Shown here: positions 41,556 through 51,282 of the stretch, piece after piece
How positions within the stretch are numbered: position 1 is the first letter of the stretch
Layout of the letters: the number at the start of each line of letters is the position of its first letter
NCBI RefSeq assembly: GCF_013167455.1
Contig: NZ_CP038328.1
Length of the DNA stretch: 64,000 nt
DNA from: Escherichia coli O157:H7
GTDB lineage: Bacteria > Pseudomonadota > Gammaproteobacteria > Enterobacterales > Enterobacteriaceae
Direction: 5' to 3' (one strand)
Translations under genes and position numbers: made by a program
Notes under the pieces: generated by a model
What the model saw: only the letters and a program-made list of their open reading frames with translations
Databases searched by the model: none
Told to the model about the DNA's origin: nothing

Positions 41556-44500
41556 ATGATGGAAATTCTGCGTGGTTCGCCTGCACTGTCGGCATTCCGA
41601 ATCAACAAACTGCTGGCACGTTTTCAGGCTGCCAGGCTCCCGGTTCACAATATTTACGCCGAGTATGTCCATTTTGCTGACCTCAATGCGCCGTTAAACG
41701 ATGATGAGCACGCACAACTTGAACGCCTGCTGAAATATGGCCCGGCACTCGCCAGCCACGCCCCGCAAGGCAAACTCCTGCTGGTGACCCCGCGTCCTGG
41801 CACCATCTCTCCCTGGTCTTCGAAAGCGACCGATATTGCTCATAACTGCGGGCTACAACAGGTAAACCGCCTTGAGCGCGGCGTTGCTTACTATATAGAA
41901 GCCGGTACGCTGACCAATGAACAATGGCAGCAGGTTACCGCTGAACTGCACGACCGCATGATGGAAACGGTCTTTTTTGCTTTAGATGATGCAGAGCAGT
42001 TGTTTGCCCACCATCAACCGACTCCGGTTACCAGCGTTGATTTGCTGGGGCAGGGCCGTCAGGCGCTGATCGACGCTAACCTGCGTCTTGGCCTGGCTCT
42101 GGCGGAAGATGAAATTGACTATCTGCAGGATGCTTTCACAAAGCTTGGTCGTAACCCGAACGACATCGAGCTGTATATGTTCGCTCAGGCGAACTCTGAG
42201 CACTGCCGCCACAAAATTTTTAATGCCGACTGGATTATCGACGGTGAACAGCAGCCGAAATCGCTGTTCAAGATGATCAAAAATACTTTCGAAACCACGC
42301 CAGATCACGTTCTCTCTGCTTATAAAGATAACGCCGCCGTAATGGAAGGTTCTGAAGTGGGCCGCTACTTTGCTGACCACGAAACGGGCCGCTACGATTT
42401 CCATCAGGAACCGGCGCATATTCTGATGAAAGTCGAAACTCACAACCACCCGACGGCGATTTCTCCGTGGCCGGGCGCGGCGACCGGTTCCGGCGGTGAA
42501 ATCCGCGATGAAGGTGCCACCGGGCGCGGCGCGAAGCCGAAAGCGGGTTTGGTTGGTTTCTCCGTTTCCAACCTGCGAATTCCTGGCTTCGAACAGCCGT
42601 GGGAAGAAGATTTCGGTAAGCCTGAGCGCATTGTCACCGCGCTGGACATCATGACCGAAGGCCCGCTGGGCGGCGCGGCGTTTAACAACGAATTTGGTCG
42701 TCCGGCACTGAATGGCTACTTCCGTACTTATGAAGAAAAAGTGAACAGCCACAACGGCGAAGAGCTGCGCGGTTATCACAAACCGATCATGCTGGCGGGC
42801 GGGATCGGCAACATTCGCGCCGATCACGTACAAAAAGGCGAGATCAACGTCGGTGCGAAACTGGTCGTTCTCGGCGGCCCGGCAATGAACATCGGTCTTG
42901 GCGGCGGAGCGGCGTCTTCCATGGCGTCAGGTCAGTCTGATGCCGACCTCGACTTTGCTTCCGTACAGCGCGACAACCCGGAGATGGAGCGTCGCTGCCA
43001 GGAAGTGATCGACCGTTGCTGGCAGCTTGGTGATGCCAACCCAATCCTGTTTATCCACGACGTCGGCGCTGGCGGTCTTTCTAACGCGATGCCGGAACTG
43101 GTGAGCGACGGCGGGCGCGGCGGTAAATTTGAACTGCGCGATATTCTAAGCGACGAACCGGGCATGAGCCCGCTGGAAATCTGGTGTAACGAATCCCAGG
43201 AACGCTACGTGCTGGCGGTTGCTGCCGATCAATTACCGCTGTTTGACGAACTGTGTAAGCGTGAGCGCGCACCCTACGCGGTGATTGGTGAAGCGACCGA
43301 AGAACTGCATCTTTCTCTGCACGATCGTCATTTTGATAATCAGCCGATCGATCTGCCGCTGGACGTCCTGCTTGGTAAAACGCCGAAGATGACCCGCGAT
43401 GTACAAACGCTGAAAGCGAAGGGCGATGCGCTGGTCCGTGAAGGGATCACCATTGCAGACGCGGTGAAACGCGTACTGCATCTGCCGACCGTGGCGGAGA
43501 AAACTTTCCTGGTGACCATCGGTGACCGCAGCGTAACCGGCATGGTGGCGCGCGATCAGATGGTGGGGCCGTGGCAGGTGCCGGTCGCTAACTGCGCGGT
43601 CACTACCGCCAGCCTCGACAGCTACTACGGTGAAGCGATGGCGATTGGCGAGCGTGCGCCGGTTGCGCTGCTGGATTTCGCCGCCTCTGCCCGTCTGGCG
43701 GTCGGTGAAGCGTTAACCAATATTGCCGCAACACAGATTGGCGATATCAAACGCATTAAACTTTCCGCCAACTGGATGGCGGCGGCAGGCCACCCTGGTG
43801 AAGATGCGGGCCTGTATGAAGCCGTTAAAGCCGTGGGCGAAGAGCTTTGTCCGGCGCTGGGCCTGACGATCCCGGTGGGTAAAGACTCTATGTCGATGAA
43901 AACCCGCTGGCAGGAAGGTAACGAAGAGCGCGAAATGACGTCGCCGCTGTCGCTGGTGATTTCTGCATTTGCCCGCGTGGAAGATGTACGTCACACCATC
44001 ACGCCGCAGCTTTCTACCGAAGATAACGCACTGCTGCTGATTGATTTGGGCAAAGGCAATAACGCGCTGGGCGCAACGGCGCTGGCGCAGGTTTATCGTC
44101 AGCTTGGCGACAAACCGGCAGATGTACGCGATGTCGCGCAACTGAAAGGCTTCTATGACGCGATTCAGGCGCTGGTTGCACAGCGTAAGTTGCTGGCGTA
44201 TCACGACCGCTCTGATGGCGGTCTGCTGGTAACGCTGGCGGAAATGGCCTTTGCTGGTCATTGCGGCATTGACGCGGATATCGCCACTCTGGGTGACGAT
44301 CGCCTGGCGGCGTTGTTTAACGAAGAACTGGGTGCGGTCATTCAGGTTCGTGCCGCTGACCGTGAAGCGGTCGAGTCCGTACTGGCACAGCATGGGCTTG
44401 CTGATTGCGTCCATTATGTTGGGCAGGCGGTTTCCGGTGACCGTTTTGTGATTACCGCCAACGGGCAGACTGTATTCAGCGAAAGCCGCACTACGTTGCG

Positions 44501-45443
44501 TGTCTGGTGGGCAGAAACTACCTGGCAGATGCAGCGCCTGCGTGACAACCCGGAGTGTGCCGATCAGGAGCATCAGGCGAAATCAAACGACGCCGATCCG
44601 GGCCTGAATGTGAAACTGTCGTTTGATATCAACGAAGATGTGGCAGCACCGTATATTGCCACTGGCGCACGTCCGAAAGTTGCTGTGCTGCGTGAGCAGG
44701 GCGTGAACTCGCATGTTGAAATGGCGGCAGCTTTCCACCGTGCAGGCTTCGATGCTATCGACGTGCATATGAGCGACCTGCTGGCTGGACGCACGGGCCT
44801 GGAGGATTTCCACGCCCTGGTCGCGTGCGGTGGTTTCTCCTACGGTGATGTGCTGGGTGCCGGTGAAGGTTGGGCGAAGTCTATCCTGTTCAATGACCGT
44901 GTACGCGATGAGTTTGCAACCTTCTTCCACCGTCCGCAAACGCTGGCGCTGGGGGTATGTAACGGTTGCCAGATGATGTCTAATCTGCGTGAACTGATCC
45001 CAGGTAGTGAGTTGTGGCCACGTTTTGTGCGCAATACCTCCGATCGCTTTGAAGCGCGTTTCAGCTTGGTTGAAGTGACCCAAAGCCCGTCGCTGCTGTT
45101 GCAGGGGATGGTGGGCTCGCAAATGCCGATTGCTGTCTCTCATGGTGAAGGGCGCGTGGAAGTGCGTGATGCGGCGCATCTGGCGGCACTGGAAAGCAAA
45201 GGGCTGGTGGCACTGCGCTATGTCGATAACTTCGGCAAAGTCACTGAAACCTACCCGGCTAACCCGAACGGTTCTCCGAACGGTATTACGGCGGTCACGA
45301 CTGAAAGCGGTCGAGTCACCATTATGATGCCGCACCCGGAACGTGTTTTCCGTACTGTCAGCAACTCCTGGCATCCTGAAAACTGGGGCGAGGATGGCCC
45401 ATGGATGCGCATTTTCCGCAATGCACGTAAGCAGTTGGGGTAA
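41556..45443 (+). CDS. purL: Phosphoribosylformylglycinamidine (FGAM) synthase, large single-chain form, 1295 aa
   Basis: [20 protein letters not shown]... with a C-terminal glutaminase containing GVCNGCQMM. The track ORF is 36 codons longer. Confidence 0.98.
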
Positions 45444-45467
45444 GCCGTCAAACTCATTGGTTTTGCA

Positions 45468-45500
45468 GCCCGGATGAGGCATTCACGCCGCATCCGGCAT
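45468..45500. repeat. REP element
   Basis: gcccggatgaggcattcacgccgcatccggca: the typical GCCGGATGCGGCGTGAACGCCTTATCCGGC-type palindromic unit. Confidence 0.8.
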
Positions 45501-45519
45501 TAAATACAACCGCTATTAT

Positions 45520-45546
45520 AAGCTCCCAACTTCGGGAGCTTTTTTG
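45520..45546 (+). terminator. purL terminator
   Basis: agctccc-aacttc-gggagct followed by tttttt. Confidence 0.85.
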
Positions 45547-45564
45547 TGTCTGTAAATCACGACA
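45547..45564. promoter_or_regulatory. GlrR (QseF) activator binding site, distal
   Basis: TGTC-tgtaaatcac-GACA fits the TGTC-N10-GACA GlrR box. Confidence 0.75.
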
Positions 45565-45579
45565 ATGGGTGGTTTACCG

Positions 45580-45597
45580 TGTCGCTTTCTGGCGACA
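45580..45597. promoter_or_regulatory. GlrR activator binding site, middle
   Basis: TGTC-gctttctggc-GACA. Confidence 0.8.
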
Positions 45598-45642
45598 CTT
45601 AAATGATTGATTTTATTGTAATCTAATAAGTTTTTCTTAAGT

Positions 45643-45660
45643 TGTCTCTTTTTAGCGACA
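45643..45660. promoter_or_regulatory. GlrR activator binding site, proximal
   Basis: TGTC-tctttttagc-GACA, ~100 bp upstream of the sigma-54 promoter. The A/T-rich tract between them is suitable for IHF bending. Confidence 0.8.
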
Positions 45661-45749
45661 CAGTGGCTGATTTACATTCAAATAGCGGGGAAGCCATAAA
45701 CCCCTCAAAGCAACGTATAATCAGTACGTTACCAAACTATTTTCTTTAT

Positions 45750-45766
45750 TGGCACAGTTACTGCAT
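45750..45766 (+). promoter_or_regulatory. Sigma-54 (-24/-12) promoter of glmY
   Basis: TGGCAC-agtta-CTGCAT compared with the consensus TGGCAC-N5-TTGCA. The GG and GC are correctly spaced, 11-13 nt upstream of the inferred GlmY 5' end. Confidence 0.85.
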
Positions 45767-45776
45767 AATAGTAATC

Positions 45777-45960
45777 AGTGGCTCATTCACCGACTTATGT
45801 CAGCCCCTTCGGGACGTGCTACATAAAATTCGAATGACGCACAACAAGGTGCCTGCCGTCCAACTTCTGATATCAGCGTAGCTATATCAACCATCGGGCG
45901 AAACGTCGAGTTAGGCACCGCCTTATTCCATAACAAAGCCGGGTAATTCCCGGCTTTGTT
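45777..45960 (+). ncRNA. glmY: GlmY sRNA (184-nt primary transcript, processed to ~148 nt)
   Basis: AGTGGCTCATTCACCGACTTATGTCAGCCCCTTCGGGACGTGC... ends in the terminator aaagccggg-taat-tcccggctttgtt. Sequence and position (purL-glrK spacer) match remembered GlmY. Confidence 0.88.
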
Positions 45961-46018
45961 GTATCTGAACTTCCCCTCGGTTAGCATCAGGCTATTCGCG
46001 TCTGACGAGAGTAACACC

Positions 46019-47446
46019 TTGAAACGCTGGCCCGTTTTTCCCCGCTCATTACGACAACTGGTAATGCTGGCATTTTTGCTGATTCTGCTGCCCCTGTTGG
46101 TGCTGGCATGGCAAGCCTGGCAAAGCCTGAATGCGCTTAGCGACCAGGCGGCGCTGGTCAACCGCACCACGCTTATCGATGCCCGGCGCAGCGAAGCAAT
46201 GACCAACGCGGCGCTGGAGATGGAGCGTAGCTACCGTCAGTATTGCGTGCTGGATGACCCTACGCTTGCGAAGGTTTATCAAAGCCAGCGCAAGCGTTAC
46301 AGCGAAATGCTCGATGCCCACGCAGGCGTACTGCCAGACGATAAACTTTACCAGGCATTGCGTCAGGACTTGAACAATCTGGCCCAACTTCAGTGCAACA
46401 ACAGTGGTCCCGATGCTGCTGCTGCCGCGCGTCTGGAAGCCTTTGCCAGTGCCAATACCGAAATGGTACAGGCCACGCGCACAGTAGTGTTCTCTCGTGG
46501 GCAGCAACTTCAGCGTGAAATCGCCGAACGTGGGCAATATTTTGGTTGGCAATCGCTGGTGCTATTTCTGGTGAGTCTGGTAATGGTACTGCTTTTCACG
46601 CGGATGATTATCGGGCCGGTGAAAAATATTGAACGGATGATCAATCGGTTGGGGGAAGGGCGTTCTCTGGGCAATAGCGTTTCGTTCAGTGGACCGAGCG
46701 AGTTACGCTCGGTTGGGCAACGTATTCTTTGGTTAAGTGAGCGCCTGTCATGGCTGGAATCCCAACGCCATCAATTTTTAAGACATTTATCTCATGAATT
46801 AAAAACGCCACTGGCGAGTATGCGCGAGGGCACTGAATTACTGGCTGATCAGGTTGTCGGGCCGCTTACGCCAGAGCAAAAAGAGGTGGTGAGCATTCTT
46901 GATAGCAGCAGCCGCAATTTGCAAAAACTGATCGAACAACTGCTTGATTACAACCGTAAACAGGCGGACAGTGCGGTGGAACTAGATAATGTTGAGTTAG
47001 CACCGCTGGTGGAGACAGTAGTTTCTGCTCATAGCCTGCCCGCACGGGCTAAAATGATGCATACCGACGTCGATCTCAAAGCAACAGCTTGCCTGGCGGA
47101 GCCAATGCTGCTGATGAGCGTACTGGATAATCTTTACTCCAATGCGGTGCACTACGGGGCTGAATCCGGTAACATTTGCCTTCGCAGCAGTTTACATGGT
47201 GCGCGGGTTTATATTGATGTCATCAATACAGGCACGCCCATTCCGCAAGAGGAACGCGCCATGATCTTCGAACCCTTTTTTCAGGGAAGCCACCAGCGAA
47301 AAGGGGCGGTGAAGGGCAGCGGTCTGGGATTAAGCATTGCCAGGGATTGTATTCGCCGTATGCAAGGGGAACTGTATCTGGTCGACGAGAGCGGGCAAGA
47401 CGTTTGTTTCCGCATTGAATTACCGTCGTCGAAAAACACGAAATAA
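46019..47446 (+). CDS. glrK: Sensor histidine kinase GlrK (QseE/YfhK), 475 aa
   Basis: Two TM segments, HAMP, H-box LSHELKTPLASM, and G2 box GSGLGLSIA. The TTG start at 46019 (KRWPVFPRSL) gives 475 aa. The track ORF is 21 codons longer. Confidence 0.93.
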   Translation: MKRWPVFPRSLRQLVMLAFLLILLPLLVLAWQAWQSLNALSDQAALVNRTTLIDARRSEAMTNAALEMERSYRQYCVLDDPTLAKVYQSQRKRYSEMLDAHAGVLPDDKLYQALRQDLNNLAQLQCNNSGPDAAAAARLEAFASANTEMVQATRTVVFSRGQQLQREIAERGQYFGWQSLVLFLVSLVMVLLFTRMIIGPVKNIERMINRLGEGRSLGNSVSFSGPSELRSVGQRILWLSERLSWLESQRHQFLRHLSHELKTPLASMREGTELLADQVVGPLTPEQKEVVSILDSSSRNLQKLIEQLLDYNRKQADSAVELDNVELAPLVETVVSAHSLPARAKMMHTDVDLKATACLAEPMLLMSVLDNLYSNAVHYGAESGNICLRSSLHGARVYIDVINTGTPIPQEERAMIFEPFFQGSHQRKGAVKGSGLGLSIARDCIRRMQGELYLVDESGQDVCFRIELPSSKNTK

Positions 47447-47610
47447 TGCTAACAGCCTATCCCATCAGGCTATTTTATTTGTCAGTTCGGCCCCGGGCAG
47501 TGCTCGAAATCCTCACGTACGACATGTACGCTCCGGTTTCTCCGCGCTGTCCATGTCCAAACTGTCTGCAACAATTACGCCCACTGGGATAGGCTTTAAG
47601 TCTGGTGAAT

Positions 47611-48324
47611 ATGCGACACATTTTTCAACGATTATTGCCCCGACGGCTGTGGCTGGCAGGGCTGCCATGTCTGGCATTGCTAGGTTGCGTGCAGAATCAC
47701 AATAAGCCAGCCATTGATACGCCAGCAGAAGAAAAAATTCCGGTTTATCAACTGGCTGACTATCTTTCTACTGAATGTAGCGACATCTGGGCGCTGCAAG
47801 GTAAATCAACCGAAACCAATCCGCTTTACTGGCTGCGGGCGATGGATTGTGCTGATCGTTTAATGCCTGCGCAGTCGCGTCAGCAAGCTCGCCAATATGA
47901 CGACGGCAGCTGGCAAAATACCTTTAAACAAGGGATTTTGCTCGCCGACGCCAAAATTACGCCATATGAGCGCCGCCAGCTGGTCGCGCGTATTGAAGCG
48001 TTAAGTACCGAGATCCCGGCACAGGTTCGCCCACTGTATCAACTCTGGCGCGACGGTCAGGCGCTGCAACTGCAACTGGCGGAAGAGCGCCAACGCTACA
48101 GTAAACTCCAGCAGTCCAGCGACAGCGAGCTGGATACATTGCGCCAGCAACATCACGTTCTACAGCAGCAACTGGAACTCACCACCCGCAAGCTGGAAAA
48201 CCTGACTGATATTGAACGCCAGCTCTCGACCCGCAAACCGGCTGGAAATTTCTCGCCGGATACGCCACACGAGAGTGAAAAGCCCGCGCCATCCACCCAT
48301 GAGGTCACTCCTGATGAGCCATAA
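47611..48324 (+). CDS. qseG: Outer-membrane lipoprotein QseG (YfhG), 237 aa
   Basis: Lipobox LALLGC|V and a Gln-rich coiled-coil C-terminal half. The 3' end overlaps the glrR start by 11 nt. Confidence 0.92.
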   Translation: MRHIFQRLLPRRLWLAGLPCLALLGCVQNHNKPAIDTPAEEKIPVYQLADYLSTECSDIWALQGKSTETNPLYWLRAMDCADRLMPAQSRQQARQYDDGSWQNTFKQGILLADAKITPYERRQLVARIEALSTEIPAQVRPLYQLWRDGQALQLQLAEERQRYSKLQQSSDSELDTLRQQHHVLQQQLELTTRKLENLTDIERQLSTRKPAGNFSPDTPHESEKPAPSTHEVTPDEP

Positions 48325-49648
48325 ACCTGCGCATTTATTATTGGTCGATGACGATCCGGGATTGCTGAAACTGCTTGGCCTGCGCCTGACCAGCGAAGGC
48401 TACAGCGTGGTCACGGCGGAAAGTGGCGCTGAAGGATTACGGGTACTGAATCGCGAAAAAGTAGATTTAGTCATCAGCGACCTGCGGATGGATGAAATGG
48501 ACGGTATGCAGCTGTTTGCTGAAATCCAGAAAGTGCAGCCGGGAATGCCGGTAATTATTCTTACCGCGCATGGTTCTATTCCCGATGCCGTTGCTGCAAC
48601 ACAGCAGGGCGTTTTTAGTTTCCTCACCAAGCCTGTTGATAAAGACGCGCTATATCAGGCAATTGATGATGCGCTGGAACAATCCGCGCCAGCCACCGAC
48701 GAACGCTGGCGCGAGGCGATTGTCACCCGCAGCCCGCTGATGCTGCGTTTGCTGGAACAGGCGCGGCTGGTGGCGCAATCAGACGTCAGCGTTTTGATTA
48801 ATGGCCAGAGCGGCACCGGGAAAGAGATTTTCGCCCAGGCTATCCACAACGCCAGCCCGCGCAATAGCAAACCATTTATTGCTATTAACTGTGGTGCATT
48901 GCCTGAGCAATTGCTGGAGTCGGAGCTGTTTGGTCATGCGCGTGGCGCGTTTACTGGCGCTGTCAGCAATCGCGAAGGTTTATTCCAGGCGGCGGAAGGC
49001 GGAACGCTATTTCTCGATGAGATTGGCGATATGCCTGCGCCGTTGCAGGTCAAACTGTTGCGCGTGTTGCAGGAGCGTAAAGTGCGCCCGCTGGGCAGTA
49101 ACCGCGATATTGATATCAATGTGCGGATTATTTCTGCCACTCACCGTGATCTGCCAAAAGCGATGGCGCGCGGGGAATTCCGCGAAGATCTCTATTACCG
49201 CCTCAACGTTGTCAGCCTGAAAATTCCGGCACTGGCGGAGCGCACAGAAGACATTCCGCTACTGGCAAATCACCTGTTGCGCCAGGCGGCAGAGCGACAT
49301 AAACCGTTTGTCCGCGCGTTTTCCACCGATGCGATGAAACGCCTGATGACCGCGAGCTGGCCGGGTAATGTGCGCCAGTTGGTCAACGTGATTGAACAGT
49401 GCGTGGCGCTGACCTCATCTCCGGTGATTAGCGATGCATTAGTAGAGCAGGCGCTGGAGGGTGAAAATACGGCGCTGCCAACCTTTGTTGAGGCACGTAA
49501 TCAGTTTGAACTCAACTATTTGCGTAAGCTGCTGCAAATTACCAAAGGCAACGTCACCCACGCGGCGAGAATGGCGGGGCGCAACCGGACAGAATTTTAT
49601 AAACTGCTTTCCCGACACGAGCTGGATGCAAACGATTTCAAGGAATGA
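48314..49648 (+). CDS. glrR: Sigma-54-dependent response regulator GlrR (QseF/YfhA), 444 aa
   Basis: Receiver domain ([14 protein letters not shown]), AAA+ Walker A GQSGTGKE, sigma-54 contact GAFTGA, and a C-terminal HTH. The start [14 protein letters not shown] gives 444 aa. Confidence 0.96.
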
Positions 49649-49672
49649 ATTGGCGTTATGTGTTACGTTTAG

Positions 49673-50047
<375 letters not shown>

Positions 50048-50059
50048 ACCGCGTCAAGG

Positions 50060-50085
50060 GTTGCCGGATGTTTCCATCCGGCAAC
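50060..50085. terminator. Hairpin between convergent glnB and hmp
   Basis: gttgccggatg-tttc-catccggcaac: an 11-bp perfect stem. There is no strong U-tract on either strand, so termination efficiency is uncertain. Confidence 0.5.
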
Positions 50086-50091
50086 ATCAAA

Positions 50092-51282
50092 TCACAGCAC
50101 CTTATGCGGGCCAAAGCATTCGTAATGAATGTTTTCCTGCTTCACGCCCAGATCCACTAACTGTTTCGCGGCAAACTGCATGAAGCCAACCGGGCCGCAG
50201 AGATAGAACTGCATTGTCGGATCGCTGAACGCACCTTCCAGTTTGCTCAAATCCATCAGACCTTCGCTATCAAACTGACCTTTAGCGCGATCGGCTTCGC
50301 TCGGCTGACGATACCAGGTGTGCGCGGTAAAGCGCGGCAGTGACTGCCCCAGTTCCTTAACTTCATCGGCAAAGGCGTGAACATCGCCATTTTCTGCCGC
50401 ATGGAACCAGTTCACTTGTGCTGTGTGGCCTGCTTTTGCCAGCGTGTCGAGCATTGCCAGCATTGGCGTTTGACCAACACCGGCAGAGATTAACGTCACT
50501 GGTGTGTCATCTGCGACAGCCATAAAGAAATCACCTGCCGGAGCGACCAGTTTCACGACATCGCCAACATTGGCGTGATTGTGCAACCAGTTGGATACCT
50601 GCCCACCCTCTTCGCGTTTCACCGCAATACGATAGCCTTTGCCATCCGGTTTGCGAGTCAAAGAGTACTGACGAATTTCCTGATGCGGGAAACCTTCCGG
50701 CTTCAGCCAGACGCCGAGATATTGCCCCGGACGGTATTCTGCCACTGCGCCACCGTCGACCGGCTCCAGTTCGAAGCTGGTGATAAGCGCGCTGCGAGGT
50801 GTTTTAGCCACAATGCGGAAATCGCGAGTACCTTCCCAGCCACCGGCTTTGCTGGCGTTTTCGTTATAGATTTCCGCCTCGCGATTGATAAATACATTAG
50901 CCAGTACACCATAGGCTTTACCCCACGCGTCCAGCACTTCCTGCCCCGGGCTGAACATTTCGTCCAGCGTTGCCAACAGGTGTTCACCGACGATGTTGTA
51001 CTGTTCCGGTTTGATCTGGAAACTGGTGTGCTTCTGCGCGATTTTTTCTACCGCTGGCAGCAGCGCAGGCAGGTTTTCAATATTACTGGCGTAGGCGGCA
51101 ATAGCGTTAAACAGGGCTTCACGTTGATCGCCATTACGCTGGTTACTCATGTTAAAAATTTCTTTGAGTTCTGGGTTATGAGTAAACATACGGTCGTAGA
51201 AATGGGCGGTTAACTTTGGCCCCGTTTCCACCAGTAAAGGGATGGTGGCTTTTACTGTAGCGATGGTTTGAGCGTCAAGCAT
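50092..51282 (-). CDS. hmp: Flavohaemoglobin / nitric oxide dioxygenase Hmp, 396 aa
   Basis: N-terminal globin ([17 protein letters not shown]...), FAD motif RQYSL, NAD motif GVGQTP. The track ORF is 7 codons longer. Confidence 0.97.

What the first reader, a model, noticed from the sequence alone, without database searches (positions are those of the whole stretch)
47454..47595. 11-bp perfect inverted repeat brackets the glrK-qseG intercistronic spacer
agcctatccca (47454-47464, 8 nt after the glrK stop) is the exact reverse complement of tgggataggct (47585-47595, 15 nt before the qseG ATG). The two arms are 120 nt apart.
- By rough estimate, a chance 11-mer inverted repeat in a 160-bp spacer is improbable, on the order of 1 in a few hundred.
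- The left arm can alternatively form a weak local hairpin (agcct-atcccatc-aggct) followed by attttattt.
- Two mutually exclusive folds are therefore possible: a weak terminator-like hairpin, or a long-range helix that loops out the spacer and sits next to the qseG RBS.
- This could set the glrK:qseG:glrR expression ratio or be a processing site.
- I know of no description of it.
Basis: seen in the sequence. Interest (0 to 1): 0.35.

Follow-up and report, generated by a model that had tools for sequence, protein, structure and literature searches.

The report
Ends of a mobile palindromic repeat
The 11-base inverted repeat between glrK and qseG is real, but it is the pair of terminal repeats of a small mobile palindromic element (most likely the old "RSA" repeat family) that landed there in an ancestor of E. 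coli, not a purpose-built regulatory switch.

Summary
AGCCTATCCCA (47454-47464) and TGGGATAGGCT (47585-47595) are exact reverse complements 120 nt apart, which shuffling gives in about 1 of 600 spacers.

The cause is ordinary. The stretch 47449-47600 (152 bp) is one copy of a dispersed palindromic repeat.
- E. coli genomes carry a median of 5 copies, and K-12 strains carry 6.
- Further copies occur in Klebsiella, Citrobacter, Raoultella and Salmonella, and on conjugative plasmids.
- Homology between copies stops at the arms, which are therefore terminal inverted repeats.
- The copies are flanked by duplicated TAA/CTWAG.

E. albertii and about 50 other Enterobacteriaceae species have an empty site: a ~17-nt spacer holding a single CTAAG just upstream of the qseG Shine-Dalgarno sequence. 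Citrobacter amalonaticus acquired a related copy independently, in the opposite orientation.

Across 16 Escherichia alleles the arms carry five uncompensated pair-breaking changes and no covariation. The interior stem changes mainly by G·U-compatible transitions. The element evolves at roughly half the synonymous rate, which is a weak hint of tolerance or mild constraint.

The whole element folds into one long hairpin (-59.7 kcal/mol) inside the qseEGF mRNA. Any effect on QseG expression is untested.

Verdict: a known kind of element, low interest.

The parts
46019..47446 (+). glrK (qseE) coding sequence; stop codon TAA at 47444-47446
   Evidence: RefSeq annotation of the identical O157:H7 locus, with coordinates transferred to the window; ORF list.
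47449..47600 (+). Whole 152-bp repeat copy including the flanking pentamers (MITE-like palindromic element, probable RSA family). The element proper is 47454-47595 if the target-site duplication is 5 bp, or 47453-47596 if it is 3 bp.
   Evidence: Homology with paralogous copies at other loci starts and stops at these coordinates (alignments A1 and A3). The stretch is absent as a block from the E. albertii orthologous spacer. E. coli genomes hold a median of 5 places.
47449..47453 (+). Left copy of the duplicated target (CTAAC here; TTAAG in E. ruysiae, E. whittamii and Escherichia sp. E1V33). The core TAA is at 47450-47452.
   Evidence: The empty site in E. albertii reads ATG-CTAAG-TCTGG with a single pentamer. 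In 7 of 8 scorable copies in the table (nine loci were examined; one was too degenerate at its right end to score) the middle base of the flanking trinucleotide is the same on the two sides (my reading of that table; my rough chance estimate is about 0.03).
47454..47464 (+).
   Evidence: Family consensus is (CTTAG)AGCCTATCCCA.
47454..47481 (+). Subterminal local hairpin AGCCT-ATCCCATC-AGGCT followed by ATTTTATTTG. It is a weak terminator-like motif that belongs to the element itself and is conserved in all copies.
   Evidence: Terminator scan. Energy is -6.0 kcal/mol here and -8.2 for the family consensus. GGCTATTTT is nearly invariant in A3.
47479..47571 (+). Interior long imperfect hairpin of the element. 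Its apex stem-loop is CGTAC-GACAT-GTACG at 47516-47530.
   Evidence: Fold of 47478-47572 gives -34.1 kcal/mol, z = -3.98. The family consensus structure has compensatory changes in helices 5 and 6. The sub-threshold Rfam sX9 match covers 47515-47581.
47585..47595 (+).
   Evidence: Family consensus is TGGGATAGGCT(CTAAG).
47596..47600 (+). Right copy of the duplicated target (TTAAG here; CTAAG in the other Escherichia species). The core TAA is at 47597-47599.
47604..47613 (+). qseG Shine-Dalgarno sequence (GGTGA, 47604-47608) and start codon (ATG, 47611-47613). Both were left intact by the insertion and are unpaired in the predicted fold.
   Evidence: CTAAGTCTGGTGA(A/G)TATG is conserved from Escherichia to Enterobacter, with or without the element. 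MFE structure. Annotation.

Best explanation
The inverted repeat is the pair of terminal inverted repeats of a non-coding, roughly 142-152-bp palindromic mobile repeat. The element is MITE-like and is most probably the enterobacterial 'RSA' (also called BEE95) family.

One copy transposed into the pentamer CTAAG in the originally ~17-nt glrK-qseG spacer, a few nucleotides upstream of the qseG Shine-Dalgarno sequence. It duplicated TAA (or the whole CTAAG). This happened in the common ancestor of E. coli and the cryptic Escherichia clades, after the split from E. albertii, and the copy became fixed.

Because the element is an imperfect palindrome over its whole length, the qseEGF mRNA now carries a long stable stem-loop between the glrK and qseG cistrons. 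The weak hairpin plus T-run is the element's own subterminal palindrome.

Shown here: repeat-family membership, element boundaries, the empty site, independent insertions, in-silico structure, and decay of the arms.

Inferred:
- Transposition in trans by a DDE transposase of the kind that duplicates TWA. No source element was found.
- The hairpin is a tolerated by-product. At most it has a modest REP/ERIC-like effect on mRNA stability or on coupling between glrK and qseG.
For: 1. Dispersed repeat. blastn of the spacer finds 23,576 places in 5,425 of 5,426 E. coli genomes (median 5 per genome, maximum 8). The listed K-12-derived strains have 6 places. 137 plasmid-collection records match, from Pantoea, Klebsiella, Citrobacter, Salmonella, Enterobacter, Serratia and others, including 43 conjugative plasmids. 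33 viral-contig loci also match.

2. Other E. coli copies lie between ycbX and rlmL, and between the Phe leader and pheS.

3. Similarity among copies ends exactly at the arms. The consensus termini are CTTAG-AGCCTATCCCA ... TGGGATAGGCT-CTAAG.

4. Empty site. E. albertii and an albertii-like genome read ...AATAATG-CTAAG-TCTGGTGAATATG. About 50 other Enterobacteriaceae species have a similarly short spacer. Filled sites read ...ATG-(C/T)TAAG-[element]-CTAAG-TCTGG.

5. Independent insertions. Citrobacter amalonaticus has a diverged copy in the reverse orientation in the same spacer, flanked by TAA/TAA. Raoultella ornithinolytica has a copy just downstream of glrR.

6. Whole-element hairpin. The fold is -59.7 kcal/mol, z = -4.0. 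Both strands fold equally well across 18 copies (means -61.3 and -63.4 kcal/mol). In the family alignment 94.6% of cells are paired and 7 pairs show compensatory changes, above all 500 shuffles for percentage paired and for the covariation score.

7. At this locus the arms decay. Five of the seven pair-breaking events among 16 alleles fall in the 11-bp terminal helix, and none is compensated.

8. No Rfam family reaches its gathering score in the spacer. No sigma-70-like promoter is found on the + strand.
Against: - The name RSA could not be checked against a published consensus. Only a reference title was retrievable, so the family name rests on memory plus elimination of the other known E. 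coli families.
- No autonomous insertion sequence with these termini was found. Mobility is therefore inferred from the target duplication, the empty site and the independent insertions.
- The element is more conserved between Escherichia species than four-fold degenerate sites of the flanking genes (91-93% against 73-78%).
- Paired positions change about half as often as unpaired ones (17 events in 92 positions against 21 in 60).
- Ten of twelve transitions in stems keep pairing through G.U on the mRNA-sense strand. This leaves room for some selected RNA-level role of the interior stem. My own binomial estimate is about 0.02 under a 50:50 null, and about 0.05 after allowing for the C>T bias seen at unpaired sites.
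Confidence: 0.88

Rival explanations
1. Exapted element. The inserted repeat is mobile in origin but has been co-opted in E. coli as an intercistronic RNA structure. It could be a 3'-protective or processing stem, or a decoupler of glrK and qseG translation. It would tune the level of QseG, which limits QseE/QseF signalling.
For: - The copy is fixed in 5,425 of 5,426 E. coli genomes.
- It evolves at about half the rate of flanking four-fold sites.
- In the interior stem, 9 changes preserve pairing and 2 break it. All preserving changes are G.U-compatible only on the mRNA-sense strand.
- QseG is reported as limiting for QseE/QseF activity, and QseG and QseF are detectable while QseE is not (PMC6075780).
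Against: - The numbers are small, and my significance estimate is marginal once the C>T bias seen at unpaired sites is allowed for.
- Intergenic DNA in general evolves more slowly than synonymous sites (general knowledge, not checked here).
- The outer helix is decaying.
- Family copies sit in either orientation relative to neighbouring genes, for example antisense between the Phe leader and pheS.
- E. albertii and all other genera run the same operon with a ~17-nt spacer.
- No 3' end assigned to qseG appears in the held supplementary tables of a 3'-end mapping study. The operon is weakly expressed, so this absence is weak evidence.
Confidence: 0.22
2. One reading: a locus-specific riboregulator. 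A long-range 11-bp helix and a mutually exclusive terminator-like hairpin evolved in place to set the glrK:qseG:glrR ratio.
For: Both folds are possible in silico. The helix lies 8 nt upstream of the qseG Shine-Dalgarno sequence.
Against: - The same two folds are intrinsic to every copy of the repeat at unrelated loci.
- The arms show no covariation and carry five uncompensated breaks.
- The element is absent from E. albertii and from about 50 other species that have the same operon.
- The local hairpin is weak (-6 kcal/mol) and its U-tract is interrupted.
Confidence: 0.05
3. The element is mobilised as single-stranded DNA by a Y1 (IS200/IS605 or RAYT-type) transposase, like REP/REPIN elements, rather than by a DDE transposase.
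For: Each end carries its own small hairpin, AGCCTA-N6-TAGGCT. The whole element is a palindrome that folds equally well on both strands. No DDE-type parent element was found.
Against: - The flanking trinucleotide co-varies between the two sides of individual copies (TAA/TAA or TTA/TTA), as expected for a true target duplication. IS200/IS605-type elements do not make one (established knowledge).
- The empty site holds exactly one copy of the pentamer.
- There is no REP-like tetranucleotide signature or sequence similarity.
Confidence: 0.06
4. The inverted repeat is a chance match.
For: Across the many spacers of a genome, an event with a frequency of 1 in 600 will occasionally occur.
Against: The arms coincide exactly with the ends of a multi-copy element, and the same arms recur at every copy.
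Confidence: 0.01

Closest known systems
RSA sequences (also called the BEE95 family): short palindromic dispersed intergenic repeats of enterobacteria (Bachellier & Hofnung 1996 Mol Microbiol 19:1385; Bachellier, Clement & Hofnung 1999 survey)
   Same: Dispersed, intergenic, enterobacterial and palindromic. The length of 152 bp and the 6 places in K-12 strains match what I recall of RSA. The other families of that survey are excluded by sequence or size: BIME/REP, IRU/ERIC, boxC and the 29-bp repeats.
   Different: I could not obtain the RSA consensus, so identity of sequence is unverified. Only the title of the 1996 note is in the library. The target-site duplication, empty site, covariation and locus history shown here are not, to my knowledge, part of the old descriptions.
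Bacterial MITEs such as ERIC/IRU, Correia/NEMIS and RUP
   Same: Small and non-coding, with terminal inverted repeats, a short target duplication, multiple dispersed copies, folding into a long hairpin when transcribed, and frequent location inside operons.
   Different: No sequence similarity to ERIC. The copy number is low (about 5 per genome). No parent insertion sequence was identified.
IS5-family (IS1031/ISL2-type) insertion sequences and eukaryotic PIF/Harbinger-Tourist MITEs
   Same: Preference for a CTWAG-like target, with duplication of the central TWA (recalled property of these groups; pattern seen).
   Different: No transposase gene and no sequence relationship was demonstrated. 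A 5-bp duplication cannot be excluded.
REP/BIME intercistronic elements
   Same: A repeat-derived stem-loop sitting between cistrons of an operon. REP stem-loops are known to stabilise upstream mRNA and alter relative expression, which is the most plausible kind of side effect here.
   Different: Different sequence, size (35-40-bp units against 152 bp) and mobilisation. No expression data exist for this copy.
Xanthomonas sRNA sX9 (Rfam RF02228)
   Same: The apex and the 3' side of the interior stem (47515-47581) align to the sX9 model on the same strand in every copy tested, at 25.6-32.3 bits.
   Different: All scores are below the gathering score of 44. Only about 46 of the 76 model positions align. 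The relationship is unproven.

Membership tests
MITE (miniature inverted-repeat transposable element) | Small size and no coding capacity | tested here: met
   The element is 142-152 bp. The 48-aa ORFs that span it are not conserved, because copies differ by 1-nt indels at several columns of A3.
MITE (miniature inverted-repeat transposable element) | Terminal inverted repeats at the limits of inter-copy homology | tested here: met
   The repeats are 11 nt perfect here, and 16 nt in the family consensus when the flanking pentamers are included.
MITE (miniature inverted-repeat transposable element) | Target-site duplication, and an empty site in relatives | tested here: met
   E. albertii has a single CTAAG. 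Filled sites have the pentamer, or its TAA core, on both sides. The middle base of the flanking trinucleotide matches on the two sides in 7 of 8 scorable copies.
MITE (miniature inverted-repeat transposable element) | Multiple dispersed copies at unrelated loci | tested here: met
   E. coli genomes hold a median of 5 places. By my grouping of flanks there are at least 13 distinct loci, spread across genera, plasmids and prophage-region contigs.
MITE (miniature inverted-repeat transposable element) | A related autonomous element with the same termini that supplies the transposase | tested here: inconclusive
   A terminus pattern scan of viral contigs found no inverted pair 0.3-3 kb apart. A terminus-only blastn in plasmids finds fewer records (92) than the full element (137). 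Chromosomes were not scanned for this.
RSA / BEE95 repeat family | Dispersed intergenic element of enterobacteria | tested here: met
   The family description is known to me only from the reference title and from memory.
RSA / BEE95 repeat family | About 152 bp, palindromic, about 6 copies in E. coli K-12 (as I recall the published description) | tested here: met
   152 bp between the outer ends of the extended inverted repeat. Whole-length hairpin. 6 places in the listed K-12-derived strains ER2796, TOP10 and an MG1655 derivative.
RSA / BEE95 repeat family | Sequence match to the published RSA consensus or catalogue entry | not testable with these tools
   No paper giving the consensus is held. 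The MG1655 RefSeq record shows no repeat feature in this spacer.
ERIC / IRU | Match to the conserved ERIC core | tested here: not met
   The ERIC2 primer sequence (recalled from memory) has no match with up to 3 mismatches anywhere in the window.
Intrinsic terminator | Stable G+C-rich hairpin immediately followed by a U-tract | tested here: inconclusive
   The pattern scan lists 47454-47471 plus ATTTTATTTG. The stem has only 5 pairs with an 8-nt loop, at -6.0 kcal/mol, and the U-run is interrupted. No 3' end assigned to qseG was found in the held tables of PMC7815308.
Curated cis-regulatory RNA or sRNA (Rfam) | Score at or above a family's gathering threshold | tested here: not met
   Only GlmY (45777-45924) passes in 44000-51000. 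The spacer's best hit is sX9 at 31.4 bits against a gathering score of 44.

The most novel reading that the evidence does not exclude
The RSA-type element between glrK and qseG has been domesticated in E. coli and the cryptic Escherichia clades. On this reading its interior stem is kept as an RNA structure in the qseEGF mRNA. It would uncouple qseG translation from glrK, or protect or process the transcript. That would set the level of the limiting lipoprotein QseG, giving E. coli a lineage-specific setting of the QseE/QseF-GlmY envelope and virulence circuit that E. albertii and other enterics lack.
Probability: 0.2. Interest if true: 0.45.

Novelty: already known. Interest (0 to 1): 0.15.

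Why it matters
The finding explains an eye-catching inverted repeat as the signature of a small mobile repeat, and so removes a false lead for a dedicated riboregulator.

It has modest practical value for people who study QseE/QseG/QseF.
- The 164-nt qseE-qseG spacer of E. coli and EHEC is a lineage-specific insertion carrying a very stable hairpin.
- E. albertii, Citrobacter, Enterobacter, Klebsiella and others have a ~17-nt spacer.
- Operon stoichiometry and transcript processing may therefore differ between model species. Deletions or fusions that cut inside the element may change mRNA structure.

It also gives a clean filled-site/empty-site pair and a second independent insertion for a poorly documented repeat family.

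Tried and rejected
- Rfam scans of the spacer and its neighbourhood: nothing at gathering score except GlmY. There is only a reproducible sub-threshold sX9 resemblance.
- Sigma-70 promoter scan: none on the + strand in 47200-47800. By eye, TTGTCA at 47479-47484 has no acceptable -10 hexamer 17 nt downstream. An element-borne qseG promoter was therefore not pursued.
- Coding potential: the 48-aa ORFs across the element were rejected, because copies differ by single-base indels.
- ERIC/IRU identity: rejected.
- Search for an autonomous parent insertion sequence: the terminus pattern in viral contigs gave mostly chance single hits and no distant inverted pairs. A terminus-only blastn in plasmids gave no excess over full-length copies.
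- Three prophage-contig copy groups (L108, L102, L078) were blasted against E. coli genomes to name further E. coli loci. Only the element itself matched, so these copies belong to other genera.
- Literature: nine full-text searches and several look-ups failed to retrieve any text describing RSA beyond one reference title. [quoted passage not shown]
- 3'-end mapping supplement (PMC7815308): the only 3' end near the operon is that of glmY upstream of glrK, and nothing is assigned to qseG.
- Strand asymmetry of folding across the family: none. The family as a whole does not look like an orientation-dependent RNA.

Full report
**Observation.** The sequence shows AGCCTATCCCA at 47454-47464 and its exact reverse complement TGGGATAGGCT at 47585-47595, 120 nt apart.
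- The glrK stop is TAA at 47444-47446. The annotated qseG start is ATG at 47611 (annotation of an identical O157:H7 record).
- The repeat finder extends the pair to 16 nt at 88% complementarity (47449-47464 / 47585-47600), which spans exactly 152 bp.
- In 3000 shuffles of the 164-nt spacer, only 5 had a perfect inverted repeat of 11 nt or more.
- The local hairpin AGCCT/AGGCT followed by ATTTTATTTG is present but weak, at -6.0 kcal/mol.

**What it is.** The spacer is not unique sequence.
- blastn of 47440-47610 against 5,426 complete E. coli genomes finds 23,576 places, a median of 5 per genome and up to 8. A flank-free consensus gives the same counts, with 6 places in the listed K-12-derived strains.
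- The plasmid collection holds 137 matching records from Pantoea, Klebsiella, Citrobacter, Escherichia, Salmonella, Enterobacter, Serratia and others. These include 43 conjugative plasmids, many of them carrying one and the same copy beside an RND efflux gene.
- 33 prophage-region contigs also contain copies.
- Other E. coli copies lie between ycbX and rlmL, and between the Phe leader and pheS.
The consensus is CTTAG-AGCCTATCCCA...TGGGATAGGCT-CTAAG. The arms are therefore the terminal inverted repeats of a dispersed element.

**Insertion history.** I anchored on QseG and retrieved the orthologous locus from 68 species.
- The element sits between glrK and qseG only in E. coli/Shigella, two unnamed Escherichia species, E. 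ruysiae and E. whittamii.
- It is absent from E. albertii, from an albertii-like genome labelled E. coli, and from every Citrobacter, Enterobacter, Klebsiella, Raoultella, Kluyvera, Lelliottia, Phytobacter and other locus.
- The empty site reads ...GAAATAATG-CTAAG-TCTGGTGAATATG. The motif CTAAGTCTGGTGA(A/G)TATG is conserved as far out as Enterobacter.
- Filled sites read ATG-(C/T)TAAG-[AGCC...GGCT]-CTAAG-TCTGG. The target was thus duplicated, either as TAA within a CTAAG context or as the whole pentamer.
- Among the eight of nine loci that could be scored, the middle base of the flanking trinucleotide agrees between the two sides in seven (TAA/TAA or TTA/TTA; my reading of the table). That pattern is expected for a true target duplication.
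- Citrobacter amalonaticus carries a diverged relative in the opposite orientation in the same spacer. It is inserted at a TAA 9 nt further upstream and leaves the CTAAG intact.
- Raoultella ornithinolytica has a full copy just downstream of glrR.
- Together these are the classic signatures of a MITE-like mobile element.
- I found no autonomous element with the same ends. The transposase is therefore unknown. The CTWAG/TWA target recalls IS5-family and PIF/Harbinger-type elements, which is a lead from memory only.

**Structure.**
- The whole element is an imperfect palindrome. 47440-47625 folds into one long hairpin of -59.7 kcal/mol (z = -4.0).
- The interior alone (47478-47572) gives -34.1 kcal/mol (z = -3.98).
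- Across 18 copies from 13 loci the consensus structure has 41 pairs, 94.6% of cells are paired, and 7 pairs carry compensatory changes. This exceeds all 500 column shuffles for percentage paired and for the covariation score, and all slid controls.
- Both strands fold equally well, and copies occur in either orientation relative to neighbouring genes. The palindrome is therefore a property of the element, not of an mRNA in one orientation.
Each terminus is itself a small palindrome (AGCCTA-N6-TAGGCT).

**Is this copy under selection?** I compared 16 orthologous alleles: 12 from E. coli/Shigella and 4 from other Escherichia species.
- The terminal 11-bp helix carries one G.U change (47463, the K-12 allele) and five pair-breaking one-sided changes (47454, 47458, 47590 and two at 47595). 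There is no compensatory change.
- The interior stem shows 9 pair-preserving transitions against 2 breaks.
- Paired positions change about half as often as unpaired ones (17 events in 92 positions against 21 in 60).
- The element is 91-93% identical between E. coli and E. whittamii or Escherichia sp. E1V33, whereas four-fold sites of glrK and qseG are 73-78% identical.
- The preserving changes work only on the mRNA-sense strand. My binomial estimate is about 0.02. It weakens to about 0.05 once the C>T excess seen at unpaired sites is allowed for.
- I read this as a weak hint of constraint on the transcribed hairpin, not as proof.

**Likely mechanism at this locus.**
- The insertion left the qseG Shine-Dalgarno sequence (47604-47608) and start codon untouched and unpaired.
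- It lengthened the glrK-qseG spacer from about 17 nt to 164 nt and placed a very stable stem between the cistrons.
- The most probable reading is a tolerated passenger.
- The plausible side effects are those known for REP/ERIC-type stems within operons: protection of the upstream mRNA segment, a processing site, or loss of translational coupling.
- The QseG literature reports that QseG is limiting for QseE/QseF activity. It mentions only a hypothetical promoter in this intergenic region (PMC6075780).
- No + strand promoter-like site and no mapped 3' end for qseG were found.

**Comparison with known families.**
- No Rfam family reaches its threshold in the spacer, and ERIC is excluded.
- The features fit what I recall of the RSA family of the Hofnung laboratory's surveys of enterobacterial palindromic repeats. 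[quoted passage not shown]
- The length (152 bp), the palindromy and the six K-12 copies agree with my recollection. The consensus could not be checked.

**Verdict.** I therefore file the feature as a copy of an already known kind of element. The filled/empty-site reconstruction and the mild RNA-level signal are small additions. Interest is low.

Noticed in passing
L017 2243-2501 (Citrobacter amalonaticus glrK-qseG spacer): An independent, reverse-oriented and diverged copy of the same repeat family occupies the same intercistronic spacer. It is flanked by TAA/TAA and carries about 66 bp of extra internal sequence. The ancestral CTAAG next to the qseG Shine-Dalgarno sequence is intact. This spacer has therefore been hit twice in different lineages.
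   Followed up: partly
window 47515-47581; L003-L007 at about 1560-1629: The core of every copy tested gives a same-strand, sub-threshold match to Rfam sX9 (Xanthomonas sRNA, RF02228) at 25.6-32.3 bits against a gathering score of 44. sX9 may be transcribed from a related repeat, which would extend the family beyond Enterobacterales.
   Followed up: partly
L006 1501-1643 (E. coli, between the Phe leader at 1664-1788 and pheS): One copy of the repeat lies between the pheST attenuator (Rfam Phe_leader, 74.4 bits) and the pheS start codon. It is antisense to the direction of transcription, so a long hairpin sits in the leader of an essential, attenuation-controlled operon.
   Followed up: no
L004 1496-1648 and plasmid hits H48-H60, H105-H130: An identical copy is carried on many conjugative plasmids of Klebsiella, Citrobacter, Enterobacter and Kluyvera. 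It overlaps the 3' end of an RND/MFS efflux gene, so the repeat travels between genera on plasmids.
   Followed up: no
L032 4579-4731 (Raoultella ornithinolytica); L022 4579-4678 (Klebsiella sp.): A full copy (Raoultella) and an internally deleted copy (Klebsiella sp.) of the repeat lie just downstream of glrR. The same operon neighbourhood was targeted at a different site in other genera.
   Followed up: no
L012 (E. ruysiae) against the window, glrK and qseG: Identity at four-fold sites to E. coli is 86% in glrK but 70% in qseG. This suggests a recombination breakpoint at or near the spacer in that lineage.
   Followed up: no
L015 (JAATUR010000003.1, labelled E. coli SCPM-O-B-8794); L007 (NZ_AP026896.1, 4.9-Mb 'plasmid' of Aeromonas caviae): L015 has an E. 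albertii-like QseG (92% identity) and the empty site, so the species label looks doubtful. L007 is a 4.9-Mb record typed as a plasmid with almost no annotation, and is probably a chromosome.
   Followed up: no
window 45777-45924: The GlmY sRNA gene (Rfam RF00128, 147 bits) lies immediately upstream of glrK, as expected for this locus. The window is 100% identical to E. coli O157:H7 across the 171-base stretch 47440-47610 that was compared.
   Followed up: yes
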